From Octopus vulgaris (lineage: Eukaryota), in contig OX597826.1 of the NCBI GenBank assembly GCA_951406725.2, positions 34,534,001 through 34,598,000 on the forward strand: DNA of 64,000 bases, written 5' to 3'. The notes beneath the pieces were generated by a model. That model did not search any database, was not told the origin of the DNA, and was given only the letters and a program-made list of their open reading frames with translations. Both the position numbers and the translations under genes were made by a program. Position 1 is the stretch's first letter. Each line of letters opens with the position of its first letter. Below are positions 2,492-60,434 of the stretch, in pieces.

Positions 2492-4544
2492 TGTGTGTGT
2501 ATGTGTGTGTGCATAAATATATATACGTATATATATATATATATGCATGAATATACATGTATATAGATCTACTCAGATAAATAAAGAGATAAGTGTAGCT
2601 TTTTACATTCGGGTGTGGTCTCAGCCTTACACTTGAACATAAGAATAACAATGTAAATACTAATATTTTTAAAACATACTGGAATAAAGTGAATCCGCTC
2701 AGTCTCTTAACATGTTCGAAATAGCCGTAGAGTAACCTTAGATTTTCTACATCGTCTTGTGTTATAAAACAAAACTACTGTGGACAGTTGCCATTCTTTT
2801 ACTGAAACAGTATGTTTTAGTATAAAATTGGAATGCCTTTGATCGTCGATTAGCTTTTTTACATAACAGCTTTGCGGTAGTTGCATTCAACAACCCTGAT
2901 TGATCTGCCAGTTGTTTTGCATCTGTCGTTACAACTGCGGCCAGGAAGCTACGATGTCTCATTTGCACTAACGCAGGCCATCTCAGGAGTTTCTGTCTGC
3001 AGGATAGGAAGATAAAAGAAAGAACAAATCTGTTGCACTGCCTATGCCATTGAAACGACGATGACGACGACCAATACAACAACAACGACAACAAGAACAA
3101 ATAAACCAGCAAAGAGTAACGTGCGATGACAACTGCAGCAGGAACAGCAAATGTAACAACTGCAAATGCAACACCTGCAGAAACGCAAAAGACAGAAACA
3201 GCAACCTCAATACTAACAACAGCAGCATTATTAACAATAGAAACAGTGGCACCGCCCAATTAAGCAACAGAAGCGCCAAAGGCAACGACAACAACTAAAA
3301 AACAACAACATCAACATCGGAAATAGAATCCCAAAATCCCAACACCTCATCACAAAATATATACCCGTCTCCACTACCATCTCCCGAAATATGAGCGATA
3401 AGGATGACAATGGTTATTCCCGTTTAAAAGAAAAGAGGAAAACAGAGAGTAAAAATTCTCAGTAGATATGAAGGGACTTGAAGAGAATACAATACCCTAT
3501 CTAATCACCATCATCATTTTAGCAGTATCAACAATGCAAACGCCCACAGATTAAGGTTAGGTGTTCAAACCCTGCAGAGATCAAGTTTACGTTTCATCTG
3601 TTCGATAATATAAAGTACCAATCGAGTGTTGATTTTCTCAACTCTTTCGCTCCTCAACAATTGCTGCTACTGCTGCTGCTGCTGCTACTGTTGTTGTTAC
3701 TGCTGTTGCAGTTCTTTTATTGACGAAAATATTGTTAACGACGTAGCGGTGGTCCATAATGAAAGCCAAGAGTCATACCGCGACATTTTGAGTTCAAATT
3801 CCCCTGTGGTTAACTTAGCTTCACCTCTCATGAAACCAGGAACTATTCAATCAGCTGTATACACACAAACGCAAAGCATTGTTAACATCGTGCCAATATT
3901 TGTAAATCATTATTCCACGAATAGCAAATGTATTTCAACATAATCACTCAACCTGATCAACATAGCTACCAAATATCCGGCAAAAACCTGCCTTTAATCT
4001 CTTGCTGCCATTAAAACGTGAACCTCATCTTTTAAGTTCTAAGTCTTAGGGCAGCAAGCCCTAATGTAAAACCAGATGGCCTTGGCTGGAAAAGCTGATC
4101 AAAGGCTCCGTTTTCTGCGATTACTCTTGTGTCAGAGATGTGCTGATGCGGAACATACAGGACTAACTCGGCAACAACAAATACAACAACAACAACAACA
4201 ACAACGACACCTATGTTCACAGATTTGGAAATTGTTTGAAAACCATTTGCTCTTTCAGTCTCCTCCTGTATGCGTGGTGTGTGCGTGTAAGCGTAAGTGT
4301 GTGTGTGCGTGTAAGTGAATGTGTGTTTCTGTGTGTAGTCAACAATATGAAAATATCAATATGCGCATATTCATGCTTGTGTGTTTCGGCGTGTGTGTGA
4401 GTATGAATAATTGCGTTCGAAAGTGTTCATGCTTAACACCAAATGCTAAAACATGCTTTTGTTTTTGGTCTATCTATTTGAGATGTGAACATGCAAGTTA
4501 ATGTATTTTTGTGTCTATGAATATGTGTTTGAAGCTATAGTTGA

Positions 4545-6095
<1,551 letters not shown>

Positions 6096-6584
6096 CGTGT
6101 AAGTGCAATGGAATGTAATATAGACCCTAAAACCGGTAAGCTATGCAACCAGCGAAAGTTATTAAATGTATTAAAGATCTTTACGTGGTTGAGTATGTAT
6201 TATTGGACTTTAGTAGATGGAGAGAAGATATTATTTTTAATATAAAACTGATCAAATTGCTTAGACCAAAGGTTATTCCTTAGTGCAAAAAAGTGGAAGT
6301 AAAATGTTATAGAATAAAAAAGCTGTCGACATTATTTAGCAGTTTTAGGTGAGCAGTTACAATTAGCGCAACGGCAGAAGTTAACGAATGTCGCACTAGT
6401 TTTATGACAATCAATAAACAGCATGCTTTTGGAAGTGTGTTCAAGATTAAAGGATGTATTTCTATGCAGATGTATTTCTAAAAGATGACAGCCCTGTTAC
6501 TTTGTTGTTACTTCCAATCTGTCTCTCATACTCACTGTATGTATGCATTTATGTATATACGTACGTATATGTATATGTAAATCA

Positions 6585-10911: not shown

Positions 10912-11072
10912 GACGTAGAAGTGGCTGTGTGATAAATAGCTTGCTTCAGAATCACATGGTTCCGGGTTCAGTCTCGCTGCGTCGCACTTTAGAGAAGTAC
11001 CTTCTACTATAACCTCGGGCCGACCAAAGCCTTGTGAGTTGATATGGTAGATAGAACTGAAAGAAACCCGTC

Positions 11073-11073
<1 letters not shown>
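10912..11073 (+). mobile_element. SINE family B, 5' half (tRNA-derived head); its TA tract hosts the 360-bp array
   Basis: gtggctgtgtgataa...ggttcagtc...ctactataacctcgggccgaccaaagccttgtgagt...gaaagaaacccgtcg(TA)n, homologous to 12563-12726. Confidence 0.85.
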
Positions 11074-11112
<39 letters not shown>

Positions 11113-11273
11113 AGGGACTAAAGCCATCTGAATATGGCTAGGGACAGGGCAGGGTGGTGGGGGTGTTACTGTTGCATTTAGCCCCAGGCGAACATCGACG
11201 TCACCAGAAAGGCTCGACACCGTCACGGTGCCCTTAACCTGCAAAGGGAGGTAATTCCCCGATGAAGCGGAAA

Positions 11274-11323
11274 CCACACACGGACCATGGTTTCAAGGTG
11301 TATTGCCTATCGTCGGCGTGTGG
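11274..11323 (-). ncRNA. Type I hammerhead ribozyme, variant core (copy 1)
   Basis: Minus strand reads CCACACG-CCGACGA-U-AGG-CAAUACA-CCU-U-GAAAC-CAUG-GUC/CGUGUGUGG. Stem I CACACG:CGUGUG, stem II AGG:CCU, palindromic stem III ACCAUGGU. Predicted GUC cleavage between 11283 and 11282. U4 is replaced by C. Confidence 0.75.
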
Positions 11324-11633
11324 TAGGCTTCCGCTTCCTCGACGAACTCTCACTCTGCAGGATATTCATATATAGATTTTCAAGCAAAATACATTTGCTG
11401 ATTTCGAAAATCTGTTCGAAAGCAATAATAATTCTCTAAAAGAGATATAGACAGTAACTGCTCGATAACATAAGGGACTAAAGCCATCTGAATATGGCTA
11501 GGGACAGGGCAGGGTGGTGGGGGTGTTACTGTTGCATTTAGCCCCAGGCGAACATCGACGTCACCAGAAAGTCGCGACACCGTCACGGTGCCCTTAACCT
11601 GCAAAGGGAGGTAATTCCCCGATGAAGCGGAAA

Positions 11634-11683
11634 CCACACACGGACCATGGTTTCAAGGTGTATTGCCTATCGTCGGCGTGTGG
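11634..11683 (-). ncRNA. Type I hammerhead ribozyme, variant core (copy 2)
   Basis: Identical to copy 1, 360 bp away. Predicted cleavage between 11643 and 11642. Confidence 0.75.
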
Positions 11684-11865
11684 TAGGCTTCCGCTTCCTC
11701 GACGAACTCTCACTCTGCAGGATATTCATATATAGATTTTCAAGCAAAATACATTTGCTGATTTCGAAAATCTGTTCGAAAGCAATAATAATTCTCTAAA
11801 AGAGATATAGACAGTAACTGCTCGATAACATAAGGGACTAAAGCCATCTGAATATGGCTAGGGAC

Positions 11866-11900
11866 AGGCAATACACCTTGAAACCATGGTCCGTGTGTGG
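11866..11900 (+). ncRNA. Truncated hammerhead (copy 3), core 5' half removed by the inversion junction
   Basis: AGGCAATACACCTTGAAACCATGGTC/CGTGTGTGG is present. CCGACGA and the 5' strand of stem I are absent. Confidence 0.65.
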
Positions 11901-12210
11901 TTTCCGCTTCATCGGGGAATTACCTCCCTTTGCAGGTTAAGGGCACCGTGACGGTGTCGAGCCTTTCTGGTGACGTCGATGTTCGCCTGGGGCTAAATGC
12001 AACAGTAACACCCCCACCACCCTGCCCTGTCCCTAGCCATATTCAGATGGCTTTAGTCCCTTATGTTATCGAGCAGTTACTGTCTATATCTCTTTTAGAG
12101 AATTATTATTGCTTTCGAACAGATTTTCGAAATCAGCAAATGTATTTTGCTTGAAAATCTATATATGAATATCCTGCAGAGTGAGAGTTCGTCGAGGAAG
12201 CGGAAGCCTA

Positions 12211-12260
12211 CCACACGCCGACAATAGGCAATACACCTTGAAACCATGGTCCGTGTGTGG
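12211..12260 (+). ncRNA. Type I hammerhead (copy 4) with G8A substitution, probably impaired
   Basis: CCACACG-CCGACAA-TAGGCAATACACCTT-GAAAC-CATG-GTC/CGTGTGTGG. Predicted site after 12251. Confidence 0.65.
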
Positions 12261-12471
12261 TTCCCGCTTCATCGGGGAATTACCTCCCTTTGCATGATAA
12301 GGACACCGTGACGGTGTCGAGCCTTTCTGGTGACGTCGATGTTCGCCTGGGGCTAAATGCAACAGTAACACCCCCACCACCCTGCCCTGTCCCTAGCCAT
12401 ATTCAGATGGCTTTAGTCCCTTATGTTATCGAGCAGTTACTGTCTATATCTCTTTTAGAGAATTATTATTG

Positions 12472-12556
<85 letters not shown>

Positions 12557-12562
12557 TATATA

Positions 12563-12952
12563 GGCGTAGGAGTGGCTGTGTGGTAAGTAGGTTGCTAACC
12601 AACAACATGGTTCTGGGTTCAGTCCGACTGCGTGGCATCTTGGGCAAGTGACTTCTGCTATAGCCCCGGGCCGACCAATGCCTTGTGAGTAGATTTGGTA
12701 GACGGAAACTGAAAGAAGCCTGTCGTATATATGTATATATATATATGTGTATGTGTGTGTGTTTGTCCCCCTAGCATTGCCTGACAACCGATGCTGGTGT
12801 GTTTACGTCCCCGTCACTTAGCGGTTCGGCAAAAGAGACCGATAGAATAAGTACTGGGCTTACAAAGAATAAGTCCCGGGGTCGATTTGCTCGACTAAAG
12901 GCGGAGCTCCAGCATGGCCGCAGTCAAATGACTGAAACAAGTAAAAGAGAAA
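12563..12952 (+). mobile_element. SINE family B, full length
   Basis: A box (tggctgtgtggtaag), B-box-like ggttcagtccc, CORE-like cttgggcaagtg, internal TA/TG tract, tail tgactgaaacaagtaaaagag. Confidence 0.9.
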
Positions 12953-58320: not shown

Positions 58321-60311
58321 CTTCTTTTCCTATATCATATATATGTGCGCGTGTGTGTGTGTGTGTATAATATATATATATGTATGCATGTGTGTGTGTA
58401 TCATTTATTTTCCTTAATTTCATGGCCTTTGTATTGTCGGATTTATTGATTATTTATCATGTCTTCTTAACACAGTACATTTTTAAATGATTTTTATCTT
58501 GAAATATTTATCATTGTTTCAATCAGTTATTATTTAACTCTACGCATTTTAATTCAGATCCAAGTTTAAGAACTATTGATTGATTAGCTATTAATACATT
58601 TTGTACCTAGATATTTACGTCTCTAGTCTTATACACACTTTAATTACCTTATAAAATCACACCCCGAAAATACACTGAAGAATGAATATTTACTAGCTTT
58701 TCGTTTTGTCAAATTCTCTTTCGGTTCATGTGAGTCAGGGAACCAATCACGGAACAGCTACAGGACAATTGCACTTTCGACTTAATTTGGTACAGATTTC
58801 AATTAATTTACTAAGTTACAATTAATTTCATTCTGATTTTAATCAACTTCACATACTCAATATTCATAAAGATTTATTAATCAGTAGACTTACTGTAGTA
58901 AGCCTCGTTACAACTACTCTTTTGAATTAATGAGGTATGGATTTCAATTAATTTGGTTTGAATTGCCATTAATACAGTACCTTTTAATTAATTTAATTCT
59001 GATTCTTATAGAGATAGCAAACTCTTATAGAAATACTAATCCGTATACCTAACGTATTGTGGGATATAAACTTAGTTTTAATACTGATATTTAAGCGATT
59101 AGTTTCGAGTTGAAGTTCAGAATCAATAATGCTACTGTGTTTTTCGTTCTTGTTTTTGCACTACTGTTTACTGATTCACAGTTAATAAGTGGTCGAACGT
59201 TTTTTTATTTAAATAATATATTATACACATACCATCCCTAATGATGGTAAAATCATTTATCTTAATCGAATGTACTGAAAATTACTATGGAATAAAGGGA
59301 AACCATACGCGATGTATTCGTAGCCATTGCAAATATACTGGAATATCACTTAATTTGACGTCTTTTTACAGACTGATTTTACTGGATCTGGCGCTGCATT
59401 GAATCCTCGGAGGTATATGAACGCTCGTCCCTTAACAACAGTTACAATGTATTCATTATATATGTTTGTGTGTAAGTGTGTATTTATGTATATGCATTTT
59501 ATGTGCAATTATTCATTAATTGCCATTTCTCCCAGTCCATTCTGATCTGCAAAGTTACTATCTATTTCTCCTCACTTCCGATCTTTGAAGTGAAAACAAC
59601 TCGAAAGAAAAATTAAGTTAGCTTATCATTTAACCGGCGAAATTTCTCTTCTTAGAAAGTTAACTCAATTTGACAACATCGAAATATAAAGGATTTCATT
59701 AATAACAAAATTGCCACTCGGATTCACCTTTTCCCACCTCAGAATGAAGTTTGCTTTATTGCTAAGGTATATTTAAAACTTTGCAACTTGACTTGCAAAC
59801 AAGATATTCCCATTGCATATCATCCAATCTCTTATAGATTAAATATAATTCTTCATTCAATTTTCTGCTTGTTTATTCTTCATCCTTATCGTTGTAATAC
59901 CTATCATCATTGTAATACCTATTAGTTCGCATGTTAATGGTCGTCAGGTGGTATAGTGTAATGTCGATTAGGTTCACAGACCGATAAACAAAAGGCAGCA
60001 TAGAAACGGTTATGGTGTTATATTAATTGTAAAAAACTGCTACTTTGGGGTGTAGAATGTCGAAGGAGAATGAGTCAATCAGCCAGAATAGCATTTAAAT
60101 TCACGGATAGAAATTAACATTTATGGGATTCGATAATAATCATATGAAGTCTTTTGCAAGAAACTCTACTGGCAAATACAGTTTTTTTTTCATTACCCGT
60201 CCTTGTCCTTCTCCTCCTCCGTTTGTTATCCAGTTGCTTTTTTCCTCCCTTTCCCGCTGTCTATTAAACTTTTCGTATCCACACATTTATATGTGCAAAC
60301 ACACGCACACT

Positions 60312-60434
60312 CAGAAGGCTTTGGTCGGCCCGAGGCTATAGTAGAAGACACTGGCCCATGTTGCCATACAGTGGGAGTGAACTCGAGTACATGCGGTTGG
60401 TAAGCAAGCTACTTACAACACAGCCATTCCTGCG

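What the first reader, a model, noticed from the sequence alone, without database searches (positions are those of the whole stretch)
11105..12473. Putative cephalopod retrozyme: 360-nt tandem unit with one type I hammerhead per monomer
Seen: a near-identical 360-bp non-coding unit repeated about 3.8 times inside (TA)n. Each unit contains CACACG-CCGACGA-U-AGG(CAAUACA)CCU-U-GAAAC(CAUG)GUC/CGUGUG. Known: metazoan non-LTR retrozymes (newt satellite 2, Schistosoma Sm-alpha, cricket and cnidarian repeats) are tandem units of a few hundred nt with type I hammerheads that self-process into monomers and circles. Inference: this is such an element, recently inserted, that would yield a 360-nt linear or circular RNA. 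I do not recall a described octopus family, but cannot confirm novelty.
Basis: partly seen in the sequence, partly recalled or inferred. Interest (0 to 1): 0.93.

Follow-up and report, generated by a model that had tools for sequence, protein, structure and literature searches.

The report
Hammerhead retrozyme with Penelope insertion scars
This is one of hundreds of near-identical, protein-free jumping repeats whose 360-base unit carries a predicted self-cutting RNA motif with an unusual core letter; its back-to-back arms and two fixed ends match the scar of Penelope-type retrotransposons, which likely copy it, probably from a small RNA circle, though cutting and circles are untested.

Summary
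The repeat and the hammerhead motif are real, but the layout is not a 3.8-copy tandem. It is two head-to-head arms (2.1 units on minus, 1.7 on plus) with three whole motifs and one cut one. The genome holds 1,214 exact cores of this family (control 0), all with C in place of the canonical U4. Older sister subfamilies keep U4 and show covarying helices, so the ribozyme is real in the lineage and U4C is derived. Of 59 insertions, 39 are two-armed; in 37 of these one arm ends at unit position ~178 and the other at ~222. That is the two-start-site "tail" published as unique to Penelope-like elements (PLEs), and two young autonomous PLEs here show it too. Neither shares sequence with the unit, so the helper is unidentified. 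Units within an insertion are mostly identical, which fits a unit-length circular template, but this copy is mosaic. No RNA data were available. Verdict: a variant of the known non-LTR retrozymes, with direct genomic evidence for PLE mobilisation. The scan noted another (487-nt) retrozyme with PLE-type insertion elsewhere in this genome.

The parts
11105..12473 (.). Whole insertion: two head-to-head arms of a 360-bp unit
11105..11868 (-). Left arm, 2.1 units, hammerhead sense on minus; outer (3') end at unit position 178 ('short' end), counting from the base after the cut site
   Evidence: L001
11866..12473 (+). Right arm, 1.7 units, hammerhead sense on plus; outer (3') end at unit position ~222 ('long' end)
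11866..11868 (.). 3-nt overlap joining the 5'-truncated ends of the two arms
11277..11322 (-). Type I hammerhead motif 1 (core CCGACGA: U4C; U.U at base of helix II; 2-bp helix III with palindromic loop); predicted cut 11283|11282
   Evidence: sequence; covariation in sister subfamilies
11637..11682 (-). Type I hammerhead motif 2, same sequence; predicted cut 11643|11642
11283..11642 (-). Predicted 360-nt monomer RNA between the two cut sites; strongly self-paired (-124 kcal/mol, z -5.5)
   Evidence: release of the monomer is inferred
11866..11897 (+). 5'-truncated hammerhead (lacks helix I 5' strand and the 5' core)
12212..12257 (+). Hammerhead motif 3 with G8A at 12223 (C3.A8 mismatch, likely inactive)
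12430..12473 (+). 44-nt 'tail' (unit positions 179-222) present at the outer end of this arm only; the Penelope-type two-start-site signature
   Evidence: for the published signature
11074..11104 (.). (TA)n target, left flank
12474..12546 (.). (TA)n target, right flank

Best explanation
It is a young copy of a high-copy, protein-free tandem repeat carrying a type I hammerhead motif (a non-LTR retrozyme) that was likely pasted in by the reverse transcriptase-endonuclease of a Penelope-like element, probably copying a unit-length RNA circle predicted to form by self-cleavage. Steps: (1) inferred: a tandem array is transcribed (no promoter found). (2) Inferred: neighbouring hammerheads pair through their 8-nt palindromes into a double hammerhead and cut after GUC, giving 360-nt monomers that a host ligase would close; U4C probably slows this. 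(3) Shown in DNA, mechanism inferred from published PLE biochemistry: the PLE protein nicks both strands of AT-rich/(TA)n DNA and starts reverse transcription at two fixed internal sites, unit positions 178 and ~222, one per strand. (4) Shown in DNA: each copy runs backwards for up to 15 units, through the cut site, and stops at variable points. (5) Shown in DNA: the two 5'-truncated copies are joined head-to-head with 0-8 nt of overlap or a short insert. My odds: PLE mobilisation about 0.9; hammerhead of this subfamily still cleaves about 0.6; circle is the usual template about 0.55.
For: Hammerhead: across 15 hand-picked rows from related subfamilies helix I is paired in 90 of 90 cells, 5 of 6 pairs with changes on both sides; the 3-8 core pair is C-G 9, U-G 4, U-A 2; loop 3 stays self-complementary in 26 of 27 cells; slid controls give 34-44% paired against 84%. 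The two young subfamilies differ in the core only at the free position 7. A 78%-identical sister has a fully canonical core (L159). The double-hammerhead fold is 10 kcal/mol better than two single ones. The axolotl HHR_Amex2 has the same U.U and 2-bp helix III and cleaves best as a dimer (PMC7229834). PLE mobilisation: 97 of 98 arms end at 166-180 or 217-224 (1 ran off the fetched stretch); 37 of 39 two-arm insertions have one of each; all 39 are head-to-head. The same ends occur in sisters down to about 70% identity. Two RT start sites, cleavage and extension of both strands, and the tail as a PLE-only signature are in PMC11167929; inverted 5'-truncated copy, tail and (TA)n bias in PMC8557442. 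Two young autonomous RT+GIY-YIG PLEs here show two ends about 40 nt apart. 13-bp duplications flank the two-arm insertions L010 and L050. Unit-length template: units differ 0.25% within an arm and 0.34% between arms, against 0.8-1.1% between loci of one subfamily; 14 rare variants sit in every unit of their locus, 13 of them in both arms. 80 of 98 arms exceed one unit and only 3 of 98 5' ends lie near the cut site.
Against: No RNA or read data: transcription, cleavage and circles are untested. U4C is fixed (1,214 exact cores; 1 family member among 45 CTGA hits) and 'considerably decreases activity in vitro' (PMC3088659 passage). The single-hammerhead fold is 9 kcal/mol above the minimum and the double fold 7 above it. 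In the one PLE tested in vitro, hammerhead cleavage was dispensable and uncut RNA was the main template. 8 of 9 Xenopus retrozyme dimers did not cleave in vitro (bioRxiv 2026.07.22.740005). Some arrays are mosaic (7 rare variants in only some units), including this one, whose outer right unit has a different family haplotype: one monomer circle cannot give that. No autonomous partner shares sequence with the unit. Covariation counts are not corrected for relatedness. The 59 loci were picked by similarity or by holding a core, so arm lengths are biased upward.
Confidence: 0.7

Rival explanations
1. Same PLE-mobilised non-autonomous repeat, but the hammerhead of the youngest subfamily is crippled or dispensable; templates are uncut multimeric transcripts of existing arrays and no circle is needed.
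For: U4C lowers activity; cleavage dispensable for a PLE in vitro; mosaic arrays L001, L031, L034, L085; hammerhead fold is not the minimum-energy fold; Naiad PLEs spread without canonical hammerheads.
Against: Variants fixed in every unit of both arms need a one-unit bottleneck at some point. The branch that brought U4C also restored the Watson-Crick C3-G8 pair and kept the palindrome. A U4C viroid stays infectious.
Confidence: 0.22
2. The unit is only the pseudo-LTR or 3' fragment of a longer coding PLE not yet found.
For: Xenopus retrozymes match PLE pLTRs (24 of 57 families match known TEs, 21 of the 22 TEs being PLEs). Only two PLE families were examined at full length, of 6,136 GIY-YIG candidates (150 scored).
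Against: All 59 young-family insertions are pure tandem units, up to 15 in a row. Four widely spaced sister hits were host duplications or inversions without a PLE frame between the motifs. A family profile hit 3 of 62 PLE loci, away from the PLE ends.
Confidence: 0.04
3. Mobilised by a LINE with twin priming, or amplified at DNA level (satellite expansion, rolling DNA circle), or a fold-back assembly artefact.
For: LINE twin priming also gives inversions with microhomology (recalled). No reads could be laid on the junction.
Against: None of these predicts two fixed ends 44 nt apart, one per arm, in 37 of 39 cases; junctions differ at every locus; inner ends do not stop at the second start site; no poly(A) ends; target duplications at L010 and L050; the same layout occurs in coding PLEs.
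Confidence: 0.04

Closest known systems
Metazoan non-LTR retrozymes (Cervera and de la Pena 2020, PMC7229834; read parts 2-4 of 6, supplement not readable)
   Same: Dispersed tandem units of a few hundred bp (mussel 350-390, axolotl 330/350), one type I hammerhead per unit, GC under 50%, no ORF or LTR, target duplications over 4 bp. Axolotl HHR_Amex2 shares the U.U helix II base and the 2-bp helix III with tetraloop.
   Different: Core has fixed U4C. Head-to-head arms with a fixed 44-nt end stagger are not described in the parts read; there PLEs are only named as a strong candidate helper. Cleavage and circles were shown there, not here.
Vertebrate non-LTR retrozymes as PLE derivatives (Li, Clavereau, Pollet, bioRxiv 10.64898/2026.07.22.740005; read parts 1-3 of 5 and a word search)
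   Same: Proposes PLE origin and mobilisation of tandem type I hammerhead repeats.
   Different: Its evidence is co-occurrence and pLTR homology; 'tail', 'target site' and 'mollusc' do not occur in its text. Here the evidence is insertion anatomy, and no pLTR homology to a coding PLE was found. Its search models were canonical and minimal type I.
[quoted passage not shown] 2021, PMC8557442, passages; Frangieh et al. 2024, PMC11167929, parts 1-2 of 4)
   Same: Partial tandems, inverted 5'-truncated copy, 30-40 bp tail at one end from two RT start sites, (TA)n or AT-rich targets; non-autonomous Chlamys elements form multicopy head-to-tail insertions.
   Different: No protein; tail is 44 nt; hammerhead is a full type I motif, not a minimal one; non-autonomous Chlamys usually share the 3' end with their helper, which was not found here.
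Natural U4C hammerhead variant of a viroid (as cited in Perreault et al. 2011, PMC3088659; one passage and section 8)
   Same: Same core change, lower activity in vitro but enough in vivo.
   Different: Here it is fixed in over 1,200 genomic copies of an animal repeat and combined with U10.1.U11.1 and a weak helix III.

Membership tests
Non-LTR retrozyme | Dispersed tandem units of 150-450 bp in many copies | tested here: met
   360-bp unit; 677 candidates, 40 scored; 1,214 exact cores
Non-LTR retrozyme | One type I hammerhead fold per unit with covarying helices | tested here: met
   Rfam models do not detect it
Non-LTR retrozyme | Canonical core C3 U4 G5 A6 N7 G8 A9 | tested here: not met
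   U4C in this subfamily; met in sister subfamilies (1,505 U4-type cores). A known natural variant, so it lowers 'active ribozyme', not descent from the family
Non-LTR retrozyme | No ORF, no LTR, GC under 50% | tested here: met
   GC 47%; the longest frame across the unit has no Pfam match; no tRNA gene. PBS/PPT not searched
Non-LTR retrozyme | Target duplication longer than 4 bp when visible | tested here: met
   13 bp at L010 and L050, overlapping element ends by a few bases; not visible in (TA)n, including this window
Non-LTR retrozyme | Self-cleavage, and linear plus circular monomer RNA in vivo | not testable with these tools
   no RNA data; folding only
PLE-mobilised element | Two 3' ends some 30-45 nt apart (tail) | tested here: met
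   97 of 98 arms; 37 of 39 pairs one of each
PLE-mobilised element | Inverted 5'-truncated copy and partial tandems; (TA)n or AT-rich target | tested here: met
   39 of 59 loci; flanks
PLE-mobilised element | Young autonomous PLE in the same genome | tested here: met
   781-aa and 775-aa RT+GIY-YIG families with many intact frames
PLE-mobilised element | 3'-end or pLTR sequence shared with an autonomous PLE | tested here: inconclusive
   none with the two full-length families (best E 0.22; tail shuffles 184/500 and 448/500) or in 62 PLE loci; most PLE families not examined
Autonomous PLE | RT + GIY-YIG open frame | tested here: not met

The most novel reading that the evidence does not exclude
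These insertions are direct footprints of a Penelope protein dimer rolling round a 360-nt ribozyme-made RNA circle from two fixed start sites, one per target strand, showing that PLEs are the enzymes that spread animal retrozymes in trans with no shared terminal sequence; and the currently dominant lineage won by detuning its hammerhead (U4C) so that circles last longer.
Probability: 0.3. Interest if true: 0.75.

Novelty: new variant of a known kind. Interest (0 to 1): 0.52.

Why it matters
Which enzyme spreads animal retrozymes is left open in the founding paper (PLEs named as candidates) and argued by homology in a 2026 preprint. Here the PLE-only two-start signature is written on a protein-free hammerhead repeat in 37 of 39 two-arm insertions, with intact young PLEs in the same genome. 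That gives a ready test: 360-nt RNA plus purified PLE protein should prime at positions 178 and 222. The one-long-one-short rule also constrains how PLEs make their unexplained inverted ends. The ladder of subfamilies is a natural series of core variants (C3-G8, U3.G8, U3-A8, then U4C) for asking how much cleavage a retrozyme needs. Searches for canonical cores would miss the youngest family.

Tried and rejected
Rfam: no hammerhead. A 46-bp tail match near a PLE in L148 looked like the helper's end but is an older sister repeat lying 600 bp beyond the PLE. Sister hammerheads spaced 1.4-3.6 kb apart were not pLTRs of a coding element. No sequence match between the unit and two young PLEs. A plus-strand hammerhead-like reading of the left arm was dropped: it is the complement of helix I and has no usable stem I (sequence). 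Linear monomer as template: 5' ends are not enriched at the cut site, 3 of 98 against about 2 expected. Classic twin priming: inner ends do not cluster at the second start site. A-to-I editing trace: A>G 7 against T>C 4 among 28 recurrent variants, p 0.24. No Pol III A or B box on the sense strand (recalled consensus). No tRNA head. Literature: 'retrozyme + octopus', 'hammerhead ribozyme + octopus', 'retrozyme + inverted + Penelope + tail', 'cephalopod/ribozyme/tandem repeat/Penelope' and 'hammerhead + U4C' listed no paper on this family, judged from listings. An octopus repeat annotation (PMC13282606, word search of text and its one held supplement) has no 'hammerhead' or 'retrozyme'; nor do passages of PMC10294476. 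Repbase, Dfam and the supplement of PMC7229834 could not be seen and may list the family.

Full report
Observation. The window holds a 360-bp unit between two (TA)n runs. Tandem Repeats Finder sees only 2.1 copies, 11105-11868. Read in the hammerhead sense, both arms point outwards from a central junction with a 3-nt overlap. The left arm has two whole motifs with the quoted cut sites. The right arm has one 5'-cut motif and one whole motif with G8A. Rfam finds no hammerhead, at gathering score or at E up to 10. Unit positions below count from the base after the predicted cut.

Copy number and age. A search of the own genome (2.8 Gb) gave 677 candidates; the 40 scored gave 190 matches, the 150 listed at 95-100% identity. 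A core pattern hit 1,355 times against 6 for the control; the exact 35-letter core hit 1,214 times against 0. By hand, the first 100 places fall in 31 clusters over 162 Mb, which suggests about 350-550 insertions (estimate). Two young subfamilies differ in the core only at position 7, the free position, and by 3.1% overall.

Is the hammerhead real? The motif has the published layout of metazoan type I hammerheads: 6-bp helix I, 4-position helix II, short helix III with palindromic loop (PMC4209133, parts 1-2 of 4 read). It departs in two places: U.U at the base of helix II, known to be tolerated (PMC3088659 section 8; axolotl HHR_Amex2), and C at position 4. Only 1 of 45 hits with canonical CTGA and this helix III belongs to the family. 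Sister subfamilies were found through a conserved tail motif (2,205 hits, control 0) and a U4-type core pattern (1,505 hits, control 0); they are about 65-95% identical. On 15 hand-picked rows helix I is paired in 90 of 90 cells with double changes in 5 of 6 pairs, the 3-8 pair is C-G, U-G or U-A in 15 of 15, loop 3 is self-complementary in 26 of 27 cells, and slid controls fall to 34-44% paired from 84%. The distal helix I is weaker (72%), helix II 80%. The counts are not corrected for relatedness. A tree of 37 rows (92 candidates thinned for near-identity; 20 overlapping loci and the PLE loci left out; midpoint root) is a ladder, with the CCGA clade at the tip (100/98) and U3-U4 forms as its nearest relatives. 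So U4C is derived and arose on the branch that also restored C3-G8. U4C is reported to lower activity considerably in vitro yet to allow viroid infectivity (passage). Folding puts the single-hammerhead fold 9 kcal/mol above the minimum; in a dimer the double hammerhead is 10 kcal/mol better than two single ones and 7 above the minimum. The monomer is strongly self-paired (z -5.5). Cleavage itself is untested.

Insertion anatomy. Of 70 young-family stretches fetched, 11 overlapped the same insertion and were dropped. Of the 59 left (39 from the best matches, 20 from the first places), 39 have two arms, all head-to-head, and 20 have one. Of 98 arms, 49 end at 166-180, 48 at 217-224 and 1 ran off the stretch. 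In 37 of 39 pairs one arm is short and one long; the exceptions are L034 (both short) and L095 (cut off). By hand, 37 of 38 under independent ends has a chance near 1e-10. Inner ends are scattered; junctions overlap by 1-8 nt in 22, are blunt in 10 and hold an insert in 7. Most flanks are (TA)n; L010 and L050 lie in non-repetitive AT-rich DNA with 13-bp duplications. This is the published PLE signature: inverted 5'-truncated copy, 30-40 bp tail, (TA)n bias (PMC8557442 passages). Its biochemical cause is known for one PLE: the protein cuts and extends both strands and starts at two adjacent internal sites that bound the tail, called unique to PLEs (PMC11167929).

The helper. A GIY-YIG search (150 of 6,136 candidates scored) and a protein search (150 of 9,534) showed two young coding PLE families, 781 and 775 aa, with RT and GIY-YIG matches (the RT matches are just under Pfam's cut-off, and the second family was scanned as a 574-aa piece). 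Both show two 3' ends about 40 nt apart: one of each in both inverted copies of the first, and in 6 of 10 of the second, where an internal TA run blurs the ends. Neither shares sequence with the unit. A family profile hit 3 of 62 PLE loci: in L148 and L141 separate repeats some 600 bp from the PLE; L119 lies about 1.3 kb from the PLE match and was not inspected further. The helper class is inferred; the helper family is not identified.

The template. Units differ by 0.25% within an arm and 0.34% between the arms of one insertion, against 0.8-1.1% between loci of one subfamily. Of 121 rare variants at sites covered three or more times in a locus, 14 are in all units, 100 in one and 7 in some; 10 of the 14 come from three related loci. 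Variants in every unit of both arms need a one-unit bottleneck, which a monomer circle provides most simply. 80 of 98 arms exceed one unit (sample biased to long arms) and 5' ends do not pile up at the cut site, so a linear monomer is not the template. Against a strict circle model, some arrays are mosaic. This window is one: its outer right unit carries family variants at 46 and 52 that the other units lack, next to the G8A core. A multimeric template, a template switch or later conversion is needed here. In vitro, hammerhead cleavage was dispensable for a PLE, and 8 of 9 Xenopus retrozyme dimers did not cleave.

Comparison and novelty. It works like, and by descent belongs with, the non-LTR retrozymes of PMC7229834, with one defining feature (canonical U4) not met in this subfamily and the RNA features untested. 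That paper names PLEs as candidate helpers; the 2026 preprint argues it by co-occurrence and pLTR homology in vertebrates and has no 'tail' or 'target site' in its text. Five paper searches and an octopus repeat annotation showed no description of this family; Repbase, Dfam and one supplement could not be seen. An earlier scan note describes a different, 487-nt hammerhead repeat with PLE-type insertion in this genome (unchecked); a sequence look-up found no note on this unit. Verdict: new variant of a known kind, interest 0.52.

Noticed in passing
window 10912-11074, 12565-12726, 60309-60434: The (TA)n target lies between two copies (80% identical) of a ~163-bp dispersed repeat; SINE-like by recall only.
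   Followed up: partly
window 11105-12473: A transcript through both arms would fold into a ~567-bp, 98% hairpin: a possible double-stranded RNA substrate. No editing bias was detectable among inherited variants.
   Followed up: partly
L142:1581-3017 and 2939-5281: The young 781-aa PLE has an overlapping upstream frame of 479 aa without a Pfam family over cut-off.
   Followed up: partly
L142 ~6160-6205: The 781-aa PLE carries a hammerhead-like motif with U3/A8 core and a CAUG palindrome at the start of its 80-bp terminal repeat, 70-110 nt before its two 3' ends; read by eye.
   Followed up: no
L205-L216: Second very young PLE family, 4,270-bp unit, 775-aa frame; all 150 scored hits were 100% identical over 200 aa.
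   Followed up: partly
L051-L080: Older, decayed relatives with canonical CTGA cores, C.A or A.A at the base of helix II and three different helix I sequences; L078/L079 hold an unrelated hammerhead-like repeat with a longer helix II.
   Followed up: partly
L085:1376-3257: One variant recurs in alternate units (1 and 3 of 5), as a dimeric template would give.
   Followed up: no
L018, L148, L152: Retrozyme copies and 775-aa PLE copies often abut across one (TA)n run; shared target choice or nested insertion.
   Followed up: no
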